Virus record (IMG/VR): IMGVR_UViG_2648501400_000014
DNA: 5,888 nt
Origin: a virus
Lineage: Duplodnaviria; Heunggongvirae; Uroviricota; Caudoviricetes
Strand: one strand, 5' to 3'
A program made the position numbers and the translations under genes. The notes beneath the pieces are model-generated. The model saw nothing but the letters and a program-made list of their open reading frames with translations, searched no databases and had not been told where the DNA came from. Shown here in pieces: positions 1 through 5,888 of this stretch; position 1 is the first letter of the stretch; every line of letters begins with the position of its first letter.

Positions 1-501
1 CAGCAGCATGGCTGCAGAACAGGCCGTGTCATTGCACAGTGCCCAGACCGGCTTCTGCTGACGGAGGCGGTAAATCATGTCAGCGCAGTCAAACGCGCCG
101 GCGGCCTGCCCGCCCGGACTGTCAATGTCCAGCAGTACGCCCCGCACCTGGCTATCCGCCATTGCCTGCTGAAGACAGGCGACAATGCCGTCATAGCCTG
201 TCATTCCGGAAAATGGCCGCATCCCCCCCAGCCGGTGCACCAGCGTGCCGGTCACCGGCAGTACAGCAATACCGTTCACCACCCGGTAAACACGGGCCGG
301 TCGTTTACCTCCGGCCATGTACTCGTCCGTTTCAGCCAGCATTCCGGGAGCATCAAGCTGTACCTGCTGCTGTGGTACCGAAAGACTTGCTGCCCCCATC
401 TCGCGCCCGAGCGCGCAAAAGAAAACCCGCGCATAGGCGGGCTCCAGAAGCAGCGGTTCATTGAATGCTGCGGCAATAATGTGTGAAAGATTACGTCTCA
501 C
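1..501 (-). CDS. C: Head maturation protease / scaffold gpC-like (S49 ClpP/SppA-type serine protease); N-terminal 167 codons only, gene runs off the left window edge
   Basis: The minus-strand frame with codons on plus triplets 1-3, 4-6 ... 499-501 is open across the whole interval. My hand translation reads VRRNLSHIIAAAFNEPLLLEPAYARVFFCAL...VNGIAVLPVTGTLV...GMTGYDGIV...VLLDIDSPGGQAAGAFDCADMIYRLRQQKPVWALCNDTACSAAMLL. This aligns colinearly with lambda gpC as I recall it (...FNEPLMLEPAYARVFFCAL...NGIAVLPVSGTLV...GMTGYNGII...ILLDMDTPGGMVAGAFDCADII...KPVWALANDMNCSAGQLL). The only in-frame start is GTG at 501-499, with GAGGAG about 10 nt upstream, overlapping the portal stop by 11 nt. The 6-frame track misses it because there is no ATG; track ORF 276..476(-) is in a different frame. 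Gene order after the portal matches lambda. Confidence 0.85.
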   Translation of the reverse strand, partial: MRRNLSHIIAAAFNEPLLLEPAYARVFFCALGREMGAASLSVPQQQVQLDAPGMLAETDEYMAGGKRPARVYRVVNGIAVLPVTGTLVHRLGGMRPFSGMTGYDGIVACLQQAMADSQVRGVLLDIDSPGGQAAGAFDCADMIYRLRQQKPVWALCNDTACSAAMLL

Positions 502-2083
502 GGGGTGTTGTCTCCTCTTCCGGCCTGCGACTCTCCGCTATCTGCTGCTGATACGCCTGCGCTATCCACACCGGACGTGAGAGTCCGGCTTTTTCCCGCT
601 CTGCAGATTCCCTGACCTGCTGGCGGAAAATGTCCTGATAATCCTCGCCCATCAGCGCCAGCTCTTTCTCATACGTGCTCAGTCCGGCCTCAATGCGCAT
701 CACCGATTCCTGAACCTCCTTGAGCCCGTCAATGGCCATTCTTCCGGCACCAATCCACTCTGCCCGTGACCAGGCTGATCGCGCCTGATAAAAATCAAAA
801 CGCGCCCGTGGCGGACGGATAATCCCCCGAAGAAGTGCCTCTTCCAGCCAGCAGGAAAACATCTGCGTGGCCAGCCGGGCCGCAATAAATTTTCGCCGCC
901 CCATAAAATAGCGCCACGACTCATTGGCAGAGGCCCTGGCACTTGAATAACTGACCTTCGAGTAATCACGGGACAACTGTTCGTAGGAAACGCCAAGACC
1001 GGCGGCGATATACCGCAGCAGCGCCTGTTCAAGCGCCGAAAATCCATTGTCTGAATCCTGCGCAGTCTGTAGTTTCAGATCATCCCCGGGGAAAAGGTGC
1101 GGAATTTTGACACCACCCAGCGTCACGTTATTCGTGTCATACCAGGTGGAGAACTTATCCAGAATATTAATAAGCGGATTATCCTTCTGCCCCTGCGGCG
1201 CACCGGCGATATATTCAAAGGCCTTTTCGGTATCAAGGTCACTTTCAATCGTCGCTGCATACATCGCCTTCACTATGGCCGACTGAAGCTGTTTTGCCTG
1301 CAGGGAATCGAGCATCTTCAGCCGTTCCATTACGCTGTAAAACTGATTGGCCCCACGGGTCTGCCCGTCCTCCACCGGCTCGAAAATATGCAGCATGGCC
1401 GGACGCCCGGTGGGAAGTTCACGCGGGATCCGTTCCCATCGTCCACTCCCGGAGAACGGAAAATCATCCTCACAGATATGGTACGCAACGGCACGACCAT
1501 ATCGATCGACCTCCACACCGGCCCGCAGAAAACGGTTCCCCATACCGTGTCCTGGCGTGTCCACCCGTTTCGGACTCACGGCTTTAAAACGCGTACGGAA
1601 TAACTGCGTGGTTTCCGTATCCCAGACCGGCTGCACAAAGATTTCGCCGTTAAACGCATGAACGCCCACACCTTCACGGATAAATTCCGTGAACGTGCGT
1701 TTTCCTTCCACGTCGATCTCGCCAGACATCCCTTCGGCGTATTCCGACCAGGCCGCCTCCACCTCATCGACAAAGCTTTTTGCTGCGGTCTCCCGCATCC
1801 CCAGCCAGCGCCAGTTCGGACGGTAGCTGATAAGAAACATATGCCCGACAATGTGATCCTTATGCAGTGCCACCGCATTGGCCGCTATTCCGTTATTGCG
1901 CACCAGATCATCTGCCCGGGCATTCCCCAGACGCAACGCAGGCAGCAGGGCTGCATCGGCACTCTGCGCCGGTGGCAACCACTCCGCCATTTGCCCGCCA
2001 AATCCTGCACCGCCCCCGTTGTAGCTGAGACTCTCACGAAGCGGAACGCCGTTCACATCAATCAGGACAGGCGTTCGTTTCAT
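491..2083 (-). CDS. B: Portal protein (lambda gpB family)
   Basis: 530-aa ORF from the track. It has long colinear stretches shared with lambda gpB as I recall it, for example GNARADDLVRNNG, FNGEIFVQ, LFRTRFKAVSPKR, FEPVEDGQTRGANQFYSVMERLKMLDSLQ, SAIVKAMYAATIES, LQTAQDSDNGFSALEQALLRYIAAGLGVSYEQLSRDY, ARASANESWRYFMGRRKF and WIGAGRMAIDGLKEVQESVMRIEAGLSTYEKE. Length is close to lambda gpB (about 533 aa). The start ATG overlaps the W stop (ATGA at 2080-2083), and the gene sits between W and C as in lambda. Confidence 0.95.
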   Translation of the reverse strand: MKRTPVLIDVNGVPLRESLSYNGGGAGFGGQMAEWLPPAQSADAALLPALRLGNARADDLVRNNGIAANAVALHKDHIVGHMFLISYRPNWRWLGMRETAAKSFVDEVEAAWSEYAEGMSGEIDVEGKRTFTEFIREGVGVHAFNGEIFVQPVWDTETTQLFRTRFKAVSPKRVDTPGHGMGNRFLRAGVEVDRYGRAVAYHICEDDFPFSGSGRWERIPRELPTGRPAMLHIFEPVEDGQTRGANQFYSVMERLKMLDSLQAKQLQSAIVKAMYAATIESDLDTEKAFEYIAGAPQGQKDNPLINILDKFSTWYDTNNVTLGGVKIPHLFPGDDLKLQTAQDSDNGFSALEQALLRYIAAGLGVSYEQLSRDYSKVSYSSARASANESWRYFMGRRKFIAARLATQMFSCWLEEALLRGIIRPPRARFDFYQARSAWSRAEWIGAGRMAIDGLKEVQESVMRIEAGLSTYEKELALMGEDYQDIFRQQVRESAEREKAGLSRPVWIAQAYQQQIAESRRPEEETTPRET

Positions 2084-2286
2084 AACCTCACTCCCAGCGG
2101 ACGACGGCGACGCCGGGTTGTCCCCAGTACCGACTCCGCATCATTGATCGCCCGGTTAAGCTCATCCAGAGAAGCCGCCGTATATTCAATTCTGCGACCA
2201 TCTTTCTGGACAGACACCACCCGTTTACCGGTTAATAAATCAAGGCGCGCCTGACGCAGCGCCTGCAGTTCAGCGACTGTAACCAT
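2080..2286 (-). CDS. W: Head-tail joining / head completion protein gpW
   Basis: 68-aa ORF, the same length as lambda gpW. The motif LxxLLTGKRVVSVQKDGRRIEYTAASLDEL and the C-terminal RRRRR tract match lambda W as I recall it ([26 protein letters not shown] ... QRRRG). It lies between terminase A and portal B and overlaps the A stop by 17 nt. Confidence 0.9.
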   Translation of the reverse strand: MVTVAELQALRQARLDLLTGKRVVSVQKDGRRIEYTAASLDELNRAINDAESVLGTTRRRRRPLGVRL

Positions 2287-4198
2287 TCACTCCTCCGGAC
2301 AGCTTCGCTGCCAGTTCTTTCAGGGTTGGCCGGGTCGTCTCTTCTTCCCGGGATTTTGCCAGTACAGCCAGATCAAGCTGCCAGCGTTGCACGGACACAC
2401 GTAATGCCGCGTAGGCATACACCAGGCAGTCCAGCGCTTCGTTACGCCGCTTTTTGTTATCCCACAGCAGACGCATCTTTCCTTTTTCCCACTTCTCCAC
2501 AAGCTCTTCCGCCACCAGTTGCTGCGCCTCTGTCTGCGAAAAAATCTCCGGATCATCAGGAAAACGGATGGCATACGACGTGGCTTCATCCGCAGGAGTG
2601 GGATCGGCTTTCATACGGGCATAGAGAATTTCTTTTGCGGTGTCCGTTCCCACTTCACACAGATACACGCCCCGCTGATTGCGGGTTTTTGGCATGGTGA
2701 TCACCGGCTTGCCATAGACAGATGCGCCTTTTACCGGCAGCACCCGGAAAACACCGTGTTTTTTTGATCTCTGATAAACAATTTCACCATCGATCCCCCC
2801 GGTGTCCCAGCAGACACGGGAAATAGTCATTTCGGTGCCATCCGCATGGCGGTATTTTTTGTTGATCGCCGCATCCACACGTAACAGCGTCTCTTCCTCA
2901 TCAGGACGCCCCATAATGATGATTTTATCCACCAGAAAGGCTTCCTCTCCCGGAGCCCATCCCCAGACATACATCTCAAAACGGTTTCGCTGCGAGTCAA
3001 TGCCCGCCGTCAGATAAACCACCCGGGCAGGCACCGCCGCCGTGTAACGCACCACCTTATCCATCAGTACCTGGTGATCGAGTTTTTCGCCCACGGCCTC
3101 TTCCCAGGTCTCGCCCAGCGTGGTGTTCACAAAGGTTTTCAGGCCGTTGGGATCTTTCAGTGCATCCAGCCAGTCATAGACAATCTGTACCCAGGTGGTG
3201 AACGGACTGTACGCCGTCCAGATATGGAACGTGATGGAGCGCGGCGGCGGAATTTCATCACCCCGGGCGCTGAAAAACGTCAGACCGTCACGGGTCCACA
3301 TGCCCGTGTTTTCACAGATCCACCGCCCGTTGTTCTGGTCAAGCTCAGACTGATGGATCACGCAGCCATGATGTTCACAGAGGTAGAAAACGCTTTCGGG
3401 ACTGTCCTTCTCCCATTTAAGCCCAAAAGGCGTGGACTCATCGCCAAATTTCAGATACTGCGCCTCCCCACAGTGCGGGCAGGGCACATAAAAACGCATA
3501 AAATGCGCCGACTCGTTAGCCGCTTTTTCGATCTGGCAGGTGCCTTTGATTTTAGGCGTCGAGCCGCGAATGGATTTTGGCCACACCGACCCCTCAATAC
3601 GCTTATCCCCCAGCAGGGTTGGCGAGCCCTCTTTTTCGACATCCGGCTCGAACGAGGAAAGTTCGTCATAGCAGACCACGTCCACGGATTTTTCACGGTA
3701 GTTTTTGGCGGCAGCGCCGCCCAGGCACCAGAAACCGACGCCCGATGAAAAGCGTTTCAGCGTGAGGGTATTATCACGATGTTTACGCCCAAACCACGGT
3801 GCAAGATCGAGTAAAACCGGCACATCCCTGATCGTGGGTTCCACATGAGATTTCATAAAATCTTCAGCAGCAGAATCCGTGGGCTGGAAAAGAAGGCTGT
3901 TGCGTGATTTATGCTCAATAAAATAAGCCTCCACTCCCAGCAACATCTTTGTATAACCAACACGGGCAGATTTAATCAGATTAACAGTGCGGATCCGGTC
4001 ATTCCCCATGCTGTTCATGATGGCAACCTGAAACGGCAGTGTTTCCCACCGCCCCGGGGTGTAAGATGACTCTTTCGGAAGGTAATAATGTCGATCTGCC
4101 CACTGAACTGTCGTCAGAGGGACAGGAATTTTTAGCGCAAGGAGGCCGGTTGCTATCGCTCCTGCAGAATTAGCCGCCCTCAGTTCGTCTGAAATCAT
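2270..4198 (-). CDS. A: Terminase large subunit (lambda gpA family; ATPase plus endonuclease)
   Basis: The track ORF 2270..4240 (656 aa) matches lambda gpA along its whole length as I recall it: [20 protein letters not shown], Walker-A-like [135 protein letters not shown] place the start at the third in-frame ATG (4198-4196, MISDEL...). It is preceded by AGGTGGA, gives the same N-terminal spacing to the YYLPKE motif as lambda gpA, and gives a 29-nt overlap with Nu1 (lambda has about 26). The upstream ATGs at 4240 and 4216 lack an obvious Shine-Dalgarno. Confidence 0.93.
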
Positions 4199-4718
4199 CA
4201 ATCCACCTGCGCACATTCTCACCGGCTTCAGAAGCCACATCGGATGCTTTCGCGATTTCAGTTTTCACAGCATCAAGATGTGCGGGTGATATATCAGGGT
4301 ATTTACGCTGCAGTGTCTGAGGGACACGGACAAGGATCCCTGATATATTCTGTGCCACTCGCTGAAAGATGTAGGTAAATAACTCCGTCTCGAGGACAAG
4401 GCCTTCCTCACGAGCATTTTTCAGCTTCTGTGCATCGGCCTGTGCCTTCGTCAGTCGGTAACGTTCGTAATCAATGGTGCCGGGCTGAAGGTCTGATTCG
4501 CTGGCAGCCCTCAAATCCTCGATCTCTTTACGGAGTTTTTCGTTTTCAATATCAGATTCCCTCTGCGCATACCACTGAATGGCAGCAGTTGTATCAAAAA
4601 CTGATTCAGTCCCTTTCCCTCCACCAGAAACTAGTGGTAACCCCTGACTCTGCCAGGCGGTGATGGTCCTGACATCAACGCCAAAAATATCGGCCAGTTT
4701 TTTCTTATTGACGTTCAT
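4170..4718 (-). CDS. Nu1: Terminase small subunit (lambda gpNu1 family; N-terminal winged-HTH cosB-binding domain)
   Basis: 182-aa [106 protein letters not shown] is colinear with lambda Nu1 ([103 protein letters not shown], from memory). The C-terminal third is diverged. GGGGGAG lies just upstream of the ATG. It is the first gene downstream of cos, as in lambda. Confidence 0.93.
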
Positions 4719-4737
4719 ACACTCCCCCGGGAACCAG

Positions 4738-4748
4738 AAAGGATCTGA
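4738..4748 (+). repeat. cosB R1-like element (AAAGGATCTGA); candidate terminase small-subunit binding site
   Basis: Exact 11-mer aaaggatctga. Its reverse complement recurs at 4780..4790 and a 10/11 copy lies at 4838..4848. Position (between cosN and the Nu1 start) and alternating orientation parallel lambda R1/R2/R3. In phage orientation it reads TCAGATCCTTTCT, resembling lambda R1 CGTTTCCTTTCT. Confidence 0.6.
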
Positions 4749-4779
4749 AAATGGCGTTTTCTAACAAAAACAGCCTTTG

Positions 4780-4790
4780 TCAGATCCTTT
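4780..4790 (-). repeat. cosB R2-like element (inverted copy of AAAGGATCTGA)
   Basis: tcagatccttt is the exact reverse complement of 4738..4748, giving an 11-bp perfect inverted repeat with a 31-bp spacer. Analogous to the inverted lambda R2/R1 pair. Confidence 0.6.
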
Positions 4791-4813
4791 TATATTTTTA
4801 AAATTCTATTGAT

Positions 4814-4826
4814 AATCAAACAGTTA
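4814..4826 (+). promoter_or_regulatory. IHF-consensus site (I1-like) inside cosB
   Basis: aatcaaacagtta fits WATCAANNNNTTR exactly. It sits in an AT-rich tract between the R3-like and R2-like elements, which is where lambda I1 sits. Confidence 0.5.
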
Positions 4827-4837
4827 AAAAGAAGAAG

Positions 4838-4848
4838 AACGGATCTGA
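4838..4848 (+). repeat. cosB R3-like element (aacGGATCTGA)
   Basis: 10/11 match to the 4738..4748 element in the same orientation. In phage orientation it reads TCAGATCCGTTCTTCTTC, which contains the CCGTTCTTCTTC string that I recall at lambda R3. Confidence 0.55.
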
Positions 4849-4887
4849 TTTTTCCCTAAAAATTTTCATAAATAGCGAAAACCCGCG

Positions 4888-4899
4888 AGGTCGCCGCCC
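4888..4899 (-). other. cosN: 12-nt cohesive-end sequence (GGGCGGCGACCT on the phage top strand), terminase nicking site
   Basis: The plus strand reads aggtcgccgccc, the reverse complement of the lambda cohesive end. A surrounding core of about 44 bp (4859-4905; phage orientation ACGGGGCGGCGACCTCGCGGGTTTTCGCTATTTATGAAAATTTT) is identical to the lambda cos sequence as I recall it. It lies about 170 bp upstream of Nu1. Confidence 0.85.
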
Positions 4900-4935
4900 C
4901 GTAGCCTGCCGGATCGCCGGAAAGGACCCAATAAA

Positions 4936-4952
4936 ATGATAATAATTATCAT
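4936..4952. repeat. cos-proximal palindrome atgataat-a-attatcat (cosQ/I2-region element)
   Basis: Perfect 8-bp inverted arms with a 1-nt centre, about 37 bp on the right-end side of cosN. Lambda carries a similar palindrome (GATAATGATTATC) at the equivalent place, from memory. Confidence 0.5.
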
Positions 4953-5137
4953 TTATATAAATACCATCACACATCCCACGTACACCATAAAACCACGACA
5001 AATAATCAATTTTGTCCAAGTCATGCATTAATTGATCTGTGTCAACTTAACGTAAAGACATCTTAAGACAATACAAATCAGCAGCACTGAACACGGAAAA
5101 ACACAATGTCATCAAAAAATAAAGCTTCCCAAACCAG

Positions 5138-5278
5138 ATGATTAATCAAATCCATATTGCCCTTGAACGTAAGGGATCGGGTAATTTTTCGGCATGGGTT
5201 ATTGAAGCCTGCAGGAGAAGGCTGGCAACAGATGCAAAGCACCTGCGCCCGGCCAGCATGAAAAATAACGAGAAATGA
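5138..5278 (+). CDS. Small hypothetical protein (46 aa), ribbon-helix-helix-like helix-loop-helix remnant; possibly truncated or pseudogenised
   Basis: Hand-translated ATG..TGA ORF not in the supplied track: MINQIHIALERKGSGNFSAWVIEACRRRLATDAKHLRPASMKNNEK. It matches the C-terminal part of a small ORF at the equivalent lambda right-end position (…RNIRFPNQMIEQINIALEQKGSGNFSAWVIEACRRRL…, from memory). No Shine-Dalgarno is evident; the start overlaps the stop of an 11-codon upstream ORF (5106..5141) in an ATGA arrangement. Confidence 0.4.
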   Translation: MINQIHIALERKGSGNFSAWVIEACRRRLATDAKHLRPASMKNNEK

Positions 5279-5410
5279 ACGTTCGGTTACAGGAACCGGT
5301 AGCTACTGTCTTCTAACAATATTTCATCTTCATATCCGGCGAAACAAGACTTTACCCTGCAGGGATGTACTGAATAGCAACAGAGTGATAATTAACTTCT
5401 GATAAAATAA

Positions 5411-5737
5411 TCAGGGTGCTGAAGGACTAAAGATAAATGTTTTCTTCACGCCTTTACGCGGCTTGTCCTTCTCAAATCGCCATTTTGCCATCGCCTTTAC
5501 AACCTGCTCATCAAACAGATGGTGCGGCTCTGAACGGATAAACTCAATTCGGGTGACAGTACCATCAGCACCAATATCAAACTTCACATCAACCCGTCCC
5601 TTTATATAATTTGCCGCGGCATAGGCCGGATATTGTGGTAATGCCTTAACCAACTGTCGAGGCATATCTGTTTTATGTTGCGTACAGCCCATAACCAAAG
5701 AAGACAACAAAATAATTAACGGAAGATTTCTTTTCAT
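5411..5737 (-). CDS. Predicted lipoprotein consisting only of a TonB C-terminal-like domain (about 108 aa); candidate phage moron
   Basis: Track ORF 5411..5752(-). The start is more likely the internal ATG at 5737, giving MKRNLPLIILLSSLVMGC: a basic n-region, hydrophobic core and a lipobox-like VMGC with Thr at +2. The remainder, LPQYPAYAAANYIKGRVDVKFDIGADGTVTRIEFIRSEPHHLFDEQVVKAMAKWRFEKDKPRKGVKKTFIF, aligns with the E. coli TonB C-terminal domain (…[71 protein letters not shown]…), sharing PQYPA, G.V.VKFD, DG.V, F.E.V..AM..WR.E..KP. There is no TonB-like transmembrane anchor or Pro-rich spacer. Stop is TGA at 5413-5411. Confidence 0.8.
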   Translation of the reverse strand: MKRNLPLIILLSSLVMGCTQHKTDMPRQLVKALPQYPAYAAANYIKGRVDVKFDIGADGTVTRIEFIRSEPHHLFDEQVVKAMAKWRFEKDKPRKGVKKTFIFSPSAP

Positions 5738-5757
5738 TTTTATTCCCGGCATAGATA

Positions 5758-5774
5758 AGAATAAGTCTTATTCT
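5758..5774. promoter_or_regulatory. Palindrome agaataag-t-cttattct immediately upstream of the lipoprotein gene (candidate operator or 5' UTR hairpin)
   Basis: Perfect 8-bp inverted arms with a 1-nt spacer, ending 21 nt upstream of the 5737 ATG on the coding strand. Confidence 0.4.
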
Positions 5775-5829
5775 AACAATGCAGCCCTGTCGGTCATTAG
5801 ACTGGCCCCCTGAATCTCCAGACAACCAA

Positions 5830-5876
5830 TATCACTTAAATAAGTGATAGTCTTAATACTAGTTTTTAGACTAGTC
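5830..5876. promoter_or_regulatory. Cluster of palindromes (tatcactta-aa-taagtgata; tagtct..agacta; actagt; gactagtc): candidate operator sites
   Basis: Read directly: a 9-bp-arm inverted repeat at 5830-5838/5841-5849; tagtct (5848-5853) paired with agacta (5868-5873); the self-complementary hexamer actagt (5858-5863) and octamer gactagtc (5869-5876). All lie about 100-140 bp upstream of the lipoprotein start. Confidence 0.4.
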
Positions 5877-5888
5877 ATTGGAGAGCAG

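What the first reader, a model, noticed from the sequence alone, without database searches (positions are those of the whole stretch)
5106..5278. Small right-end ORF looks like a ribbon-helix-helix protein that has lost its DNA-reading beta-strand
The 46-aa ORF has the helix, G-x-S/N loop, helix pattern of Arc/MetJ/CopG ribbon-helix-helix proteins (IALERKGSGNFSAWVIEACRRRL). In the lambda counterpart, as I recall it, an Arg-rich N-terminus and a beta-strand (…RNIRFPNQ) precede this. Here the same frame upstream reads …VIKK-stop(5120-5122)-SFPNQ-M…, so the beta-strand is cut off by an in-frame TAA. The upstream ATG (5106) is in another frame and ends in an ATGA overlap with the 5138 start. The gene may therefore be a decaying remnant, or a translationally coupled short form lacking DNA-binding capacity.
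Basis: partly seen in the sequence, partly recalled or inferred. Interest (0 to 1): 0.4.

Follow-up and report, generated by a model that had tools for sequence, protein, structure and literature searches.

The report
Truncated remnant of phage YlcI/YnfO gene
The 46-codon reading frame is what is left of a common 64-66-codon lambdoid-phage gene (YlcI/YnfO family, probably an Arc-like DNA-binding protein) after a 28-base deletion removed its most conserved N-terminal segment, so it is most likely an ordinary, recently broken accessory gene.

Summary
ORF 5138-5278 (46 aa) is preceded in frame by TAA at 5120-5122, and an ATG at 5106 opens an 11-codon frame that ends in an ATGA overlap.

The ORF matches Pfam DUF3950 over the whole model (E 8e-19). 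It equals residues 21-66 of the 64-66-aa YlcI/YnfO proteins of lambdoid phages. One of these is an unannotated lambda ORF at complement 48109..48303.

The lesion is a 28-bp deletion near 5123/5124, not a nonsense mutation. ATG 5106 is the native start. The deletion removes codons 6-16 (RTRRTTTRNIR) and shifts the frame. The nearly invariant I-R-F motif is lost.

The allele is rare: 11 of 5426 complete E. coli genomes and 14 IMG/VR contigs carry it, against thousands of intact copies. Other 46-aa database entries are contig-end or start-call artefacts. ATG 5138 has no Shine-Dalgarno sequence, so any product would depend on reinitiation.

Ribbon-helix-helix ancestry of the family is likely but only weakly shown. 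hhalign against Arc gives E about 0.001-0.003 in the expected register, and there are weak HicB-like, Arc-like and CdbA hits. Fold searches found nothing.

Verdict: a recently inactivated accessory gene, of low interest.

The parts
4888..4899 (.). cosN cohesive-end sequence (AGGTCGCCGCCC). Context only. The gene's native start lies 207 nt to its right, on the strand opposite to Nu1.
   Evidence: The reverse-complemented right end of lambda aligns from window position 4900. The Nu1 homologue lies at 4170-4718 on the minus strand.
5106..5141 (+). Native start codon and first five codons (MSSKN) of the ancestral YlcI/YnfO gene, now running into a shifted frame. This gives an 11-codon ORF, MSSKNKASQTR, whose TGA (5139-5141) overlaps ATG 5138.
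   Evidence: Alignment with lambda, JLK-2012, 569R3, HEC0067 and BEN2908; translation. Its Shine-Dalgarno pairing is -3.5 kcal/mol, against -5.0 to -6.0 in intact alleles.
5120..5127 (.). Deletion junction, between 5123 and 5124, give or take a few bases. 28 bp present in all intact alleles (ACCCGCAGAACnACAACCCGCAAyATCC) are missing. The TAA at 5120-5122 lies in the frame of the downstream ORF.
   Evidence: Alignments A2 and A6. The junction sequence occurs in 11 of 5426 complete E. coli genomes and in 14 IMG/VR contigs.
5124..5137 (+). Leftover of codons 16-20 (..C TTC CCA AAC CAG, that is (R)FPNQ). It is in frame with the 46-aa ORF but lies upstream of its ATG and downstream of the TAA, so it is not translated in that frame.
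5138..5278 (+). 46-aa ORF, equal to residues 21-66 of the full-length protein. It has a helix A remnant (about 5138-5173), a G-S-G-N turn (5174-5185), helix B carrying NFSAWVIEAC (about 5186-5242), a variable tail and a stop codon at 5276-5278.
   Evidence: Pfam DUF3950 at E 8e-19. NCBIfam NF041551 scores only 20 bits against a cut-off of 30, covering model positions 14-39. AlphaFold2 on the full-length relative gives helices at 19-32 and 37-55. On the short form it gives helices at 3-8 and 15-35, with pLDDT 54 over the first ten residues. There is no Shine-Dalgarno sequence (-0.1 kcal/mol).

Best explanation
The ORF is the 3' two-thirds of a YlcI/YnfO-family (DUF3950) accessory gene. Lambdoid phages carry this gene next to cos and the small-terminase gene, on the strand opposite to the late operon.

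In this lineage a net 28-bp deletion removed codons 6-16 and shifted the frame. These codons encoded the basic arm and the K/R-x-I-R-F strand motif, which is the best conserved part of the family. Ribosomes starting at the native ATG (5106) now stop after 11 codons.

The downstream 46 codons stay open only because the deletion is recent. They begin at a Met codon that was already present inside the intact gene.

Inferred: the intact protein is probably an Arc-like ribbon-helix-helix dimer that reads DNA with the N-x-R face of its N-terminal strand. Any 46-aa product, made only by termination-reinitiation at the ATGA overlap, would lack the DNA-contacting residues (N14, R16) and two core residues (I15, F17). 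It would therefore be non-binding and probably poorly folded. In effect this is a pseudogene in a decaying or mosaic prophage.
For: 1. Family membership and which part is retained. Pfam DUF3950 is matched at E 8e-19 over the whole 30-position model. In full-length proteins the same domain starts at residue 21.
2. The deletion. Alignments with five intact alleles show the conserved start, then a 28-bp gap, then restored homology.
3. What was lost. I15, R16 and F17 are nearly invariant across 21 diverse full-length members. The score against NCBIfam NF041551 falls below its cut-off.
4. Rarity. The junction is in 11 of 5426 complete E. coli genomes, 14 IMG/VR contigs and no GTDB species representative. 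By contrast, homologues occur in about 4200 genomes, and all 80 best viral loci are full length.
5. Other 46-aa entries are artefacts of contig ends or start calling.
6. Translation signals. ATG 5138 has no Shine-Dalgarno sequence and the native one is weakened.
7. Decaying hosts. All three carrier prophages inspected are damaged: a head/tail deletion plus IS elements in E2348/69, a tail deletion in 2013C-3264, and an IS3-family insertion with truncated early genes in F2_81. The window itself carries an IS3-family end at 5788-5888.
8. Ribbon-helix-helix inference. hhalign against Arc gives E 0.0012-0.0031, aligning NIRFP with NLRWP. One of 300 column shuffles reaches the score. Twelve of 22 members hit PHROG HicB-like, and one member hits Arc-like repressor families. 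The ribbon-helix-helix protein CdbA is the second-best hit in the PDB (PMC7156744). AlphaFold2 gives a helix-turn-helix layout with a non-helical stretch (residues 14-18) just before helix A.
Against: - The 46 codons show no decay. All 18 carriers keep the frame open, with three protein variants.
- Divergence from the nearest intact alleles has pN/pS of 0.12-0.22. This is what a constrained coding sequence looks like.
- That pattern is also expected if the divergence predates a recent deletion. In support, the window-type 3' sequence is at least 99% identical in 10 of the 11 carrier genomes, and every other match, including the recombinant eleventh carrier, is at most 91% identical. Differences from the variant carrier form a recombination patch at 5153-5440.
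- The ATGA overlap could allow reinitiation, so expression is not excluded.
- The ribbon-helix-helix assignment has no significant Pfam, PDB-sequence or fold-search support.
- No experimental function is known for any family member.
Confidence: 0.8

Rival explanations
1. The short form is functional. The 11-codon leader is translated and ribosomes reinitiate at the overlapping ATG. The helix-turn-helix product then acts without DNA binding, for example by forming dead heterodimers with intact YlcI/YnfO proteins from co-resident prophages.
For: There is an ATGA stop/start overlap. The frame is open in all 18 carriers. pN/pS is 0.12-0.22. The allele sits on prophages with different packaging modules and in hosts from humans, pigs, dogs and chickens. 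E2348/69 holds a second homologous copy.
Against: Both the Met codon and the ATGA sequence pre-exist in intact alleles, so nothing was built for coupling. There is no Shine-Dalgarno sequence at 5138 and the native one is weaker. The carriers are too similar (99.4-100%) to show selection after the deletion. The one divergent carrier is a recombinant. The allele is rare. Two nearly invariant residues (I15, F17), which align with core residues of Arc, are gone. AlphaFold2 confidence for helix A falls from 86 to 54 in the short form.
Confidence: 0.1
2. The family is not ribbon-helix-helix but some other small helical fold. In that case the lost segment is not a DNA-reading strand, although the ORF is still a truncated remnant.
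Against: Several independent weak hits all point to ribbon-helix-helix proteins in the same register: Arc, CdbA, HicB-like and Arc-like PHROGs. A monomer model of an obligate dimer cannot form the ribbon. The pattern of alternating strand residues, Pro, helix, G-x-(S/N) turn, helix is the canonical one. The N and R of NIRF align with Arc N11 and R13; that these Arc residues contact DNA is from my own knowledge of Arc.
Confidence: 0.2
3. The frameshift is a sequencing or assembly error, and the real gene is intact.
For: The junction lies next to an A-run (5114-5119).
Against: The lesion is a 28-bp gap, not a homopolymer slip. The identical junction is found in 11 independently finished genomes and 14 other contigs.
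Confidence: 0.01

Closest known systems
YlcI (DLP12) and YnfO (Qin) of E. coli K-12, and the unannotated 64-aa lambda ORF at complement 48109..48303 (Pfam DUF3950 PF13132, NCBIfam NF041551, PHROG 949)
   Same: The helix A, G-S-G-N turn and helix B core (NFSAWVIEACRRRL) are the same. The position is the same: between the lysis/moron region and cos plus the small-terminase gene, on the opposite strand. Identity over the retained part is 85-89%.
   Different: It lacks residues 6-16 because of a 28-bp deletion and a frameshift. It falls below the NCBIfam cut-off. Only 46 aa remain, and there is no ribosome-binding site of its own.
Arc repressor of phage P22 (Arc/MetJ/CopG ribbon-helix-helix superfamily)
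   Same: Full-length relatives align without gaps to the Arc strand and helix A (NIRFP-xx-hydrophobic pattern against NLRWP), followed by a glycine turn and a second helix of similar length. The size is similar, 53 against 64-66 aa.
   Different: The similarity is weak (E about 1e-3). Helix B is not aligned by hhalign. There is no structural or biochemical confirmation. The window ORF has no strand at all.
CdbA of Myxococcus xanthus (PDB 6sbw), a ribbon-helix-helix nucleoid protein
   Same: It is the second-best PDB hit of the distant-member profile. The alignment runs from the end of the strand through helix A into the start of helix B. CdbA is described as ribbon-helix-helix in PMC7156744.
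   Different: E is 0.35, which is not significant on its own. The biology is unrelated.
Overlapping stop/start (ATGA) translationally coupled gene pairs
   Same: The TGA of the 11-codon leader overlaps the ATG of the 46-aa ORF.
   Different: The overlap is created by a frameshift from codons already present inside the intact gene. Nothing indicates that it is used.

Membership tests
YlcI/YnfO family (DUF3950) | Match to Pfam PF13132 above the gathering score (25 bits) | tested here: met
   67.7 bits, E 8.1e-19, model positions 1-30 of 30
YlcI/YnfO family (DUF3950) | Match to NCBIfam NF041551 (YlcI_YnfO_N) above its cut-off (30 bits) | tested here: not met
   20 bits. Only model positions 14-39 of 42 are matched, and the first 13 positions are absent.
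YlcI/YnfO family (DUF3950) | N-terminal basic arm and the nearly invariant K/R-x-I-R-F-(P) motif | tested here: not met
   I15, R16 and F17 are nearly invariant in 21 full-length members. They are absent from the window protein because of the 28-bp deletion.
YlcI/YnfO family (DUF3950) | N-F-S-A-W-V-x-x-A-C motif in the second helix | tested here: met
   NFSAWVIEAC is present. These columns are invariant or nearly invariant.
YlcI/YnfO family (DUF3950) | Position beside cos and the small-terminase gene, divergent from it | tested here: met
   This holds in the window, lambda, DLP12 with ybcW-ylcI-nohD, and JLK-2012 and 569R3 with an HNH/TerS module. It does not hold in the PICI-like element L113, where the gene lies between a Bro-like gene and a primase gene.
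Ribbon-helix-helix superfamily (Arc/MetJ/CopG) | N-terminal beta-strand that pairs with its twin in the dimer and reads the major groove | tested here: not met
   The window ORF starts at the first residue of helix A. The strand codons are deleted or untranslated. Full-length relatives do carry a strand-like motif in register with the Arc strand.
Ribbon-helix-helix superfamily (Arc/MetJ/CopG) | Helix A, G-x-(S/T/N) turn, helix B | tested here: met
   The sequence reads ...IALERKGSGNFSAWVIEAC... AlphaFold2 on the full-length relative gives helix 19-32, turn 33-36 (GSGN) and helix 37-55, with pLDDT 81-86. This is a prediction only.
Ribbon-helix-helix superfamily (Arc/MetJ/CopG) | Statistically significant similarity to an established ribbon-helix-helix family or structure | tested here: inconclusive
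Ribbon-helix-helix superfamily (Arc/MetJ/CopG) | Homodimerisation and sequence-specific DNA binding | not testable with these tools
No experimental data were found.
Translationally coupled overlapping genes | Stop of the upstream ORF overlaps the start of the downstream ORF | tested here: met
   ATGA at 5138-5141
Translationally coupled overlapping genes | The arrangement is maintained by selection or used for expression | tested here: inconclusive
   The ATGA sequence pre-exists inside intact alleles. The carriers are nearly identical, so they are uninformative. Expression cannot be tested here.

The most novel reading that the evidence does not exclude
The 46-aa helix-turn-helix fragment is made by reinitiation. 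It then acts as a 'poison subunit': it heterodimerises with intact YlcI/YnfO proteins encoded by other prophages in the same cell and strips them of DNA binding. This would be a naturally arisen dominant-negative form used in competition between prophages.
Probability: 0.04. Interest if true: 0.45.

Novelty: already known. Interest (0 to 1): 0.12.

Why it matters
It matters little in itself. This is a recently broken copy of a very common, uncharacterised lambdoid accessory gene, and RefSeq already lists the product (WP_001339565.1) as a DUF3950 protein.

Three minor points are useful:
- Annotation pipelines call this remnant, and several contig-end artefacts, as genuine 46-aa proteins.
- The lambda reference record still lacks a CDS for its intact 64-aa family member, which lies 199 nt from the right cohesive end.
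- The family, present in about 4200 of 5426 complete E. coli genomes, is probably an Arc-like ribbon-helix-helix DNA-binding protein. That gives a concrete, testable starting point for a gene of unknown function in the best-studied phage.

Tried and rejected
- Searches of PDB sequences with one protein and with two profiles gave nothing significant.
- Pfam at E up to 10 gave no ribbon-helix-helix family for any of 22 members.
- Rfam found no RNA family in the window.
- The promoter scan found no sigma-70-like site between cos and ATG 5106, and no terminator.
- The literature holds no functional study of YlcI, YnfO or DUF3950. The lambda ribosome-profiling paper is not held.
- I first took the window to be E2348/69 itself. 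That is wrong: identity is 99.5% over 291-5797, and both ends differ.
- I considered that the other 46-aa clusters (P0004, P0007) and the 52-aa cluster P0012 show a conserved short form. I rejected this. They sit at contig ends, or in L006 upstream of the called start the frame is intact.
- I considered that pN/pS of 0.12-0.22 proves selection on the short form. I rejected this as not discriminating. The divergence is concentrated in a recombination patch, and there is no intermediate allele between 99.4% and 91% identity.

Full report
**Setting.** The window is part of a lambda-like prophage, read in reverse relative to the lambda map.
- It holds the N-terminal part of the S49 head protease, which runs off the left end of the window.
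- It holds the portal gene (491-2083, minus strand), the W-like head-tail joining gene and the large terminase gene (2270-4240, minus strand).
- The Nu1 small terminase gene lies at 4170-4718 on the minus strand (Pfam Phage_Nu1, E 2e-85).
- The right end of lambda aligns from window position 4900, which places the 12-nt cohesive end at 4888-4899.
- To the right of cos lie the ORF in question (5138-5278, plus strand) and a TonB_C lipoprotein gene (5411-5752, minus strand). At 5788-5888 lies the terminus of an IS3-family element.
- The closest complete genome is E. coli O127:H6 E2348/69, at 99.5% over 291-5797. The region 4860-5420 is 100% identical there.

**The observation.**
- The 46-aa ORF is present.
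- The same frame upstream reads ...NVIKK-TAA(5120-5122)-SFPNQ-M.
- ATG 5106 opens MSSKNKASQTR, whose TGA overlaps ATG 5138.
- The ORF is a real gene fragment. It matches Pfam DUF3950 at 67.7 bits (E 8e-19) over all 30 model positions, and it matches PHROG 949.

**What it derives from.** Full-length relatives are 64-66 aa.
- Examples are JLK-2012 gp69 and 569R3, with MSSKNRTRRTTTRNIRFPNHIIEQINIALEHKGSGNFSAW..., and the HEC0067/BEN2908 allele.
- Lambda itself has a 64-aa ORF at complement 48109..48303. The reference record does not annotate it, but newer lambda-like records label it YlcI/YnfO.
- In these proteins the Pfam domain starts at residue 21. The window ORF is therefore exactly residues 21-66.
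- K-12 YlcI lies in the same place: ybcW, ylcI on the minus strand, then nohD.

**The lesion.** DNA alignments show the following.
- The window keeps the native ribosome-binding region and start, ATG TCA TCA AAA AA., encoding MSSKN.
- It then lacks 28 bp present in all intact alleles. Homology resumes at GC TTC CCA AAC CAG ATG ATT, encoding (R)FPNQMI.
- The deletion removes codons 6-16 (RTRRTTTRNIR) and shifts the frame.
- The TAA at 5120-5122 and the TGA at 5139-5141 are only the stops that the two shifted frames happen to meet.
- Met21 and the ATGA sequence already exist in intact lambda-type alleles (CAG ATG ATT), so the overlap was not created by selection.
- ATG 5138 has no Shine-Dalgarno pairing (-0.1 kcal/mol). 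The native start's pairing is weaker than in intact alleles (-3.5 against -5.0 to -6.0).

**What was lost.** An exhaustive search of 1.8 billion cluster representatives found only 102 family representatives.
- In an alignment of 21 diverse full-length members, the nearly invariant positions are I15-R16-F17 and N36-F37-S38-A39-W40-V41..A44-C45.
- The deletion removes the first block entirely.
- Accordingly, the NCBIfam YlcI_YnfO_N model scores 20 bits, below its 30-bit cut-off, and matches only positions 14-39.

**How common the short form is.**
- The junction sequence occurs in 11 of 5426 complete E. coli genomes. These are 10 strains, because E2348/69 is present twice.
- It occurs in 14 IMG/VR contigs and in none of the GTDB species representatives.
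- By contrast, family homologues are found in about 4200 genomes, and all 80 best viral loci are full length.
- The other 46-aa clusters (P0004, P0007) and the 52-aa cluster P0012 in the protein database are not independent short forms. They sit at contig ends, or, in L006, the upstream frame is intact and an internal Met was called.

**Is the remnant under selection?**
- All 18 carriers examined keep the 46 codons open. There are three protein variants.
- Divergence from the nearest intact alleles has pN/pS of 0.12-0.22. Among intact alleles the value is 0.08-0.10.
- This does not separate the two hypotheses. The window-type 3' sequence is at least 99% identical in 10 of the 11 carrier genomes, and the next best matches, including the eleventh carrier, are at most 91% identical.
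- The simplest reading is that an already diverged intact allele suffered a recent deletion, which has since spread by recombination among prophages.
- All three carrier prophages inspected are damaged. E2348/69 has a head/tail deletion and IS elements. 2013C-3264 has lost tail genes. F2_81 has an IS3-family insertion and truncated genes in its early region.

**Is the family ribbon-helix-helix?** The evidence agrees in direction but each piece is weak.
- An hhalign comparison of the family profile with an Arc profile gives E 0.0031. With a profile of the distant members it gives E 0.0012. My recalled Arc sequence was verified as P22 arc.
- NIRFP aligns to Arc NLRWP, and helix A aligns to helix A.
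- Only 1 of 300 column-shuffled Arc profiles reaches the real score. The reversed control scores 5.9 against 18.1.
- Twelve of 22 members weakly match PHROG 497, HicB-like (best E 8e-5). One distant member matches three Arc-like repressor PHROGs (best E 7e-4).
- The second-best PDB hit of the distant-member profile is CdbA (6sbw), a ribbon-helix-helix protein (PMC7156744). It is in the expected register, but E is 0.35.
- AlphaFold2 on a full-length relative has mean pLDDT 70. It gives helix 19-32, a four-residue GSGN turn and helix 37-55, preceded by a non-helical stretch at 14-18.
- The 46-aa form gives a shorter, low-confidence helix A, with pLDDT 54.
- Against the assignment: no Pfam ribbon-helix-helix model is hit, and all three fold searches were empty. 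That is expected for a monomer model of an intertwined dimer.
- I put the ribbon-helix-helix assignment of the intact family at about 0.75-0.8.

**Mechanism.**
- Shown: the gene has lost codons 6-16 and its reading frame. Only an 11-codon peptide can be made from the native start.
- Inferred: the intact protein is a small dimeric DNA-binding regulator. It is expressed as a 'moron' antisense to the late operon, beside cos.
- Relatives also occur in PICI-like satellites between a Bro-like gene and a primase gene, which fits a regulator (PMC13612085).
- From my own knowledge, Arc residues N11 and R13 contact bases and L12 and W14 pack in the core. The aligned residues N14, R16, I15 and F17 are all missing here.
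- Any reinitiated 46-aa product should therefore neither bind DNA nor fold well. Function has most likely been lost. A dominant-negative role against paralogues cannot be excluded, and E2348/69 does have a second copy, but I consider it unlikely.

**Novelty and verdict.** The family is known (Pfam, NCBIfam, PHROG; K-12 ylcI and ynfO). The truncated product is already in RefSeq as a DUF3950 protein. No functional study of the family was found. The finding is a correct and careful observation of an ordinary event, a recent inactivating deletion in a dispensable prophage gene. Interest is low.

Noticed in passing
window 5788-5888: This is the terminal roughly 100 nt of an IS3-family insertion sequence; I recall it as the IS2 left end. 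It ends just before the transposase start and lies about 40 nt upstream of the TonB-like gene. It is multi-copy in E. coli, with a median of 3 and up to 41 places per genome. None of the 18 other carriers of the deletion allele has it at this spot.
   Followed up: partly
window 5411-5752 (-): A 113-aa lipoprotein with a TonB C-terminal domain (lipobox LVMGC; Pfam TonB_C at E 2.7e-15). It is convergent with the remnant ORF and sits in the slot where lambda and DLP12 carry other accessory genes (ybcW/lambdap79, ybcV/lambdap78, bor). It is a moron of unknown role.
   Followed up: no
L005 200-394 (lambda NC_001416 complement 48109..48303): The lambda reference record has no CDS for its intact 64-aa YlcI/YnfO homologue, which lies 199 nt from the right cohesive end. 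Newer lambda-like records do annotate it.
   Followed up: yes
P0004, P0007, P0012; loci L006-L011: Database clusters of 46-52-aa 'DUF3950 / YlcI' proteins, holding 17-64 member sequences each, are artefacts. The contigs break inside this multi-copy prophage region, or an internal Met was called although the upstream frame is intact (L006).
   Followed up: yes
P0034, P0041, P0050, P0054, P0070, P0090, P0114 and others: Many metagenome 'representatives' of the family are frameshift-riddled versions of the lambda protein itself. They are probably error-rich reads or assemblies of lambda control DNA, and they inflate the apparent diversity of the family.
   Followed up: no
P0099 (129 aa); L112, L113 3501-3683: One family member carries a C-terminal small-terminase (Terminase_2) N-terminal domain (E 1.7e-6). 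Its nearest relatives in viral contigs are unfused. They sit in PICI-like elements with the gene order integrase, AlpA-like, Bro-like, YlcI-like, primase.
   Followed up: partly
window 4934-4954: A perfect 10-nt inverted repeat, AAATGATAAT / ATTATCATTT, lies 35 nt to the right of cosN. It is largely conserved in lambda (GTGATAATGATTATCAT). It may be a cos accessory site; I did not check it against the cosQ literature.
   Followed up: no
window 4777-4804 (+): This is the best sigma-70-like site pointing toward the remnant gene (TTGTCA-16-TAAAAT, 10 of 12). It lies on the Nu1 side of cos. No promoter-like site was found between cos and ATG 5106. If it is real, the gene would be transcribed only across a sealed cos.
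   Followed up: no
P0077 (177 aa): This protein starts at the family's Met21, continues through a YnfO-like tail, and runs on into about 120 further residues. It may be a read-through or fusion in a Qin-like prophage, or an assembly artefact.
   Followed up: no
L003 1195-1643; L012 10288-11266; L013 26585-28948: All three carrier prophages inspected are defective, each in a different way. E2348/69 has a fused S49 protease / NlpC-P60 pseudogene, meaning head and tail genes are deleted, plus IS200C and ISEc13. 2013C-3264 has gpU fused to tail-fibre remnants. F2_81 has an IS3-family insertion and truncated early genes.
   Followed up: partly
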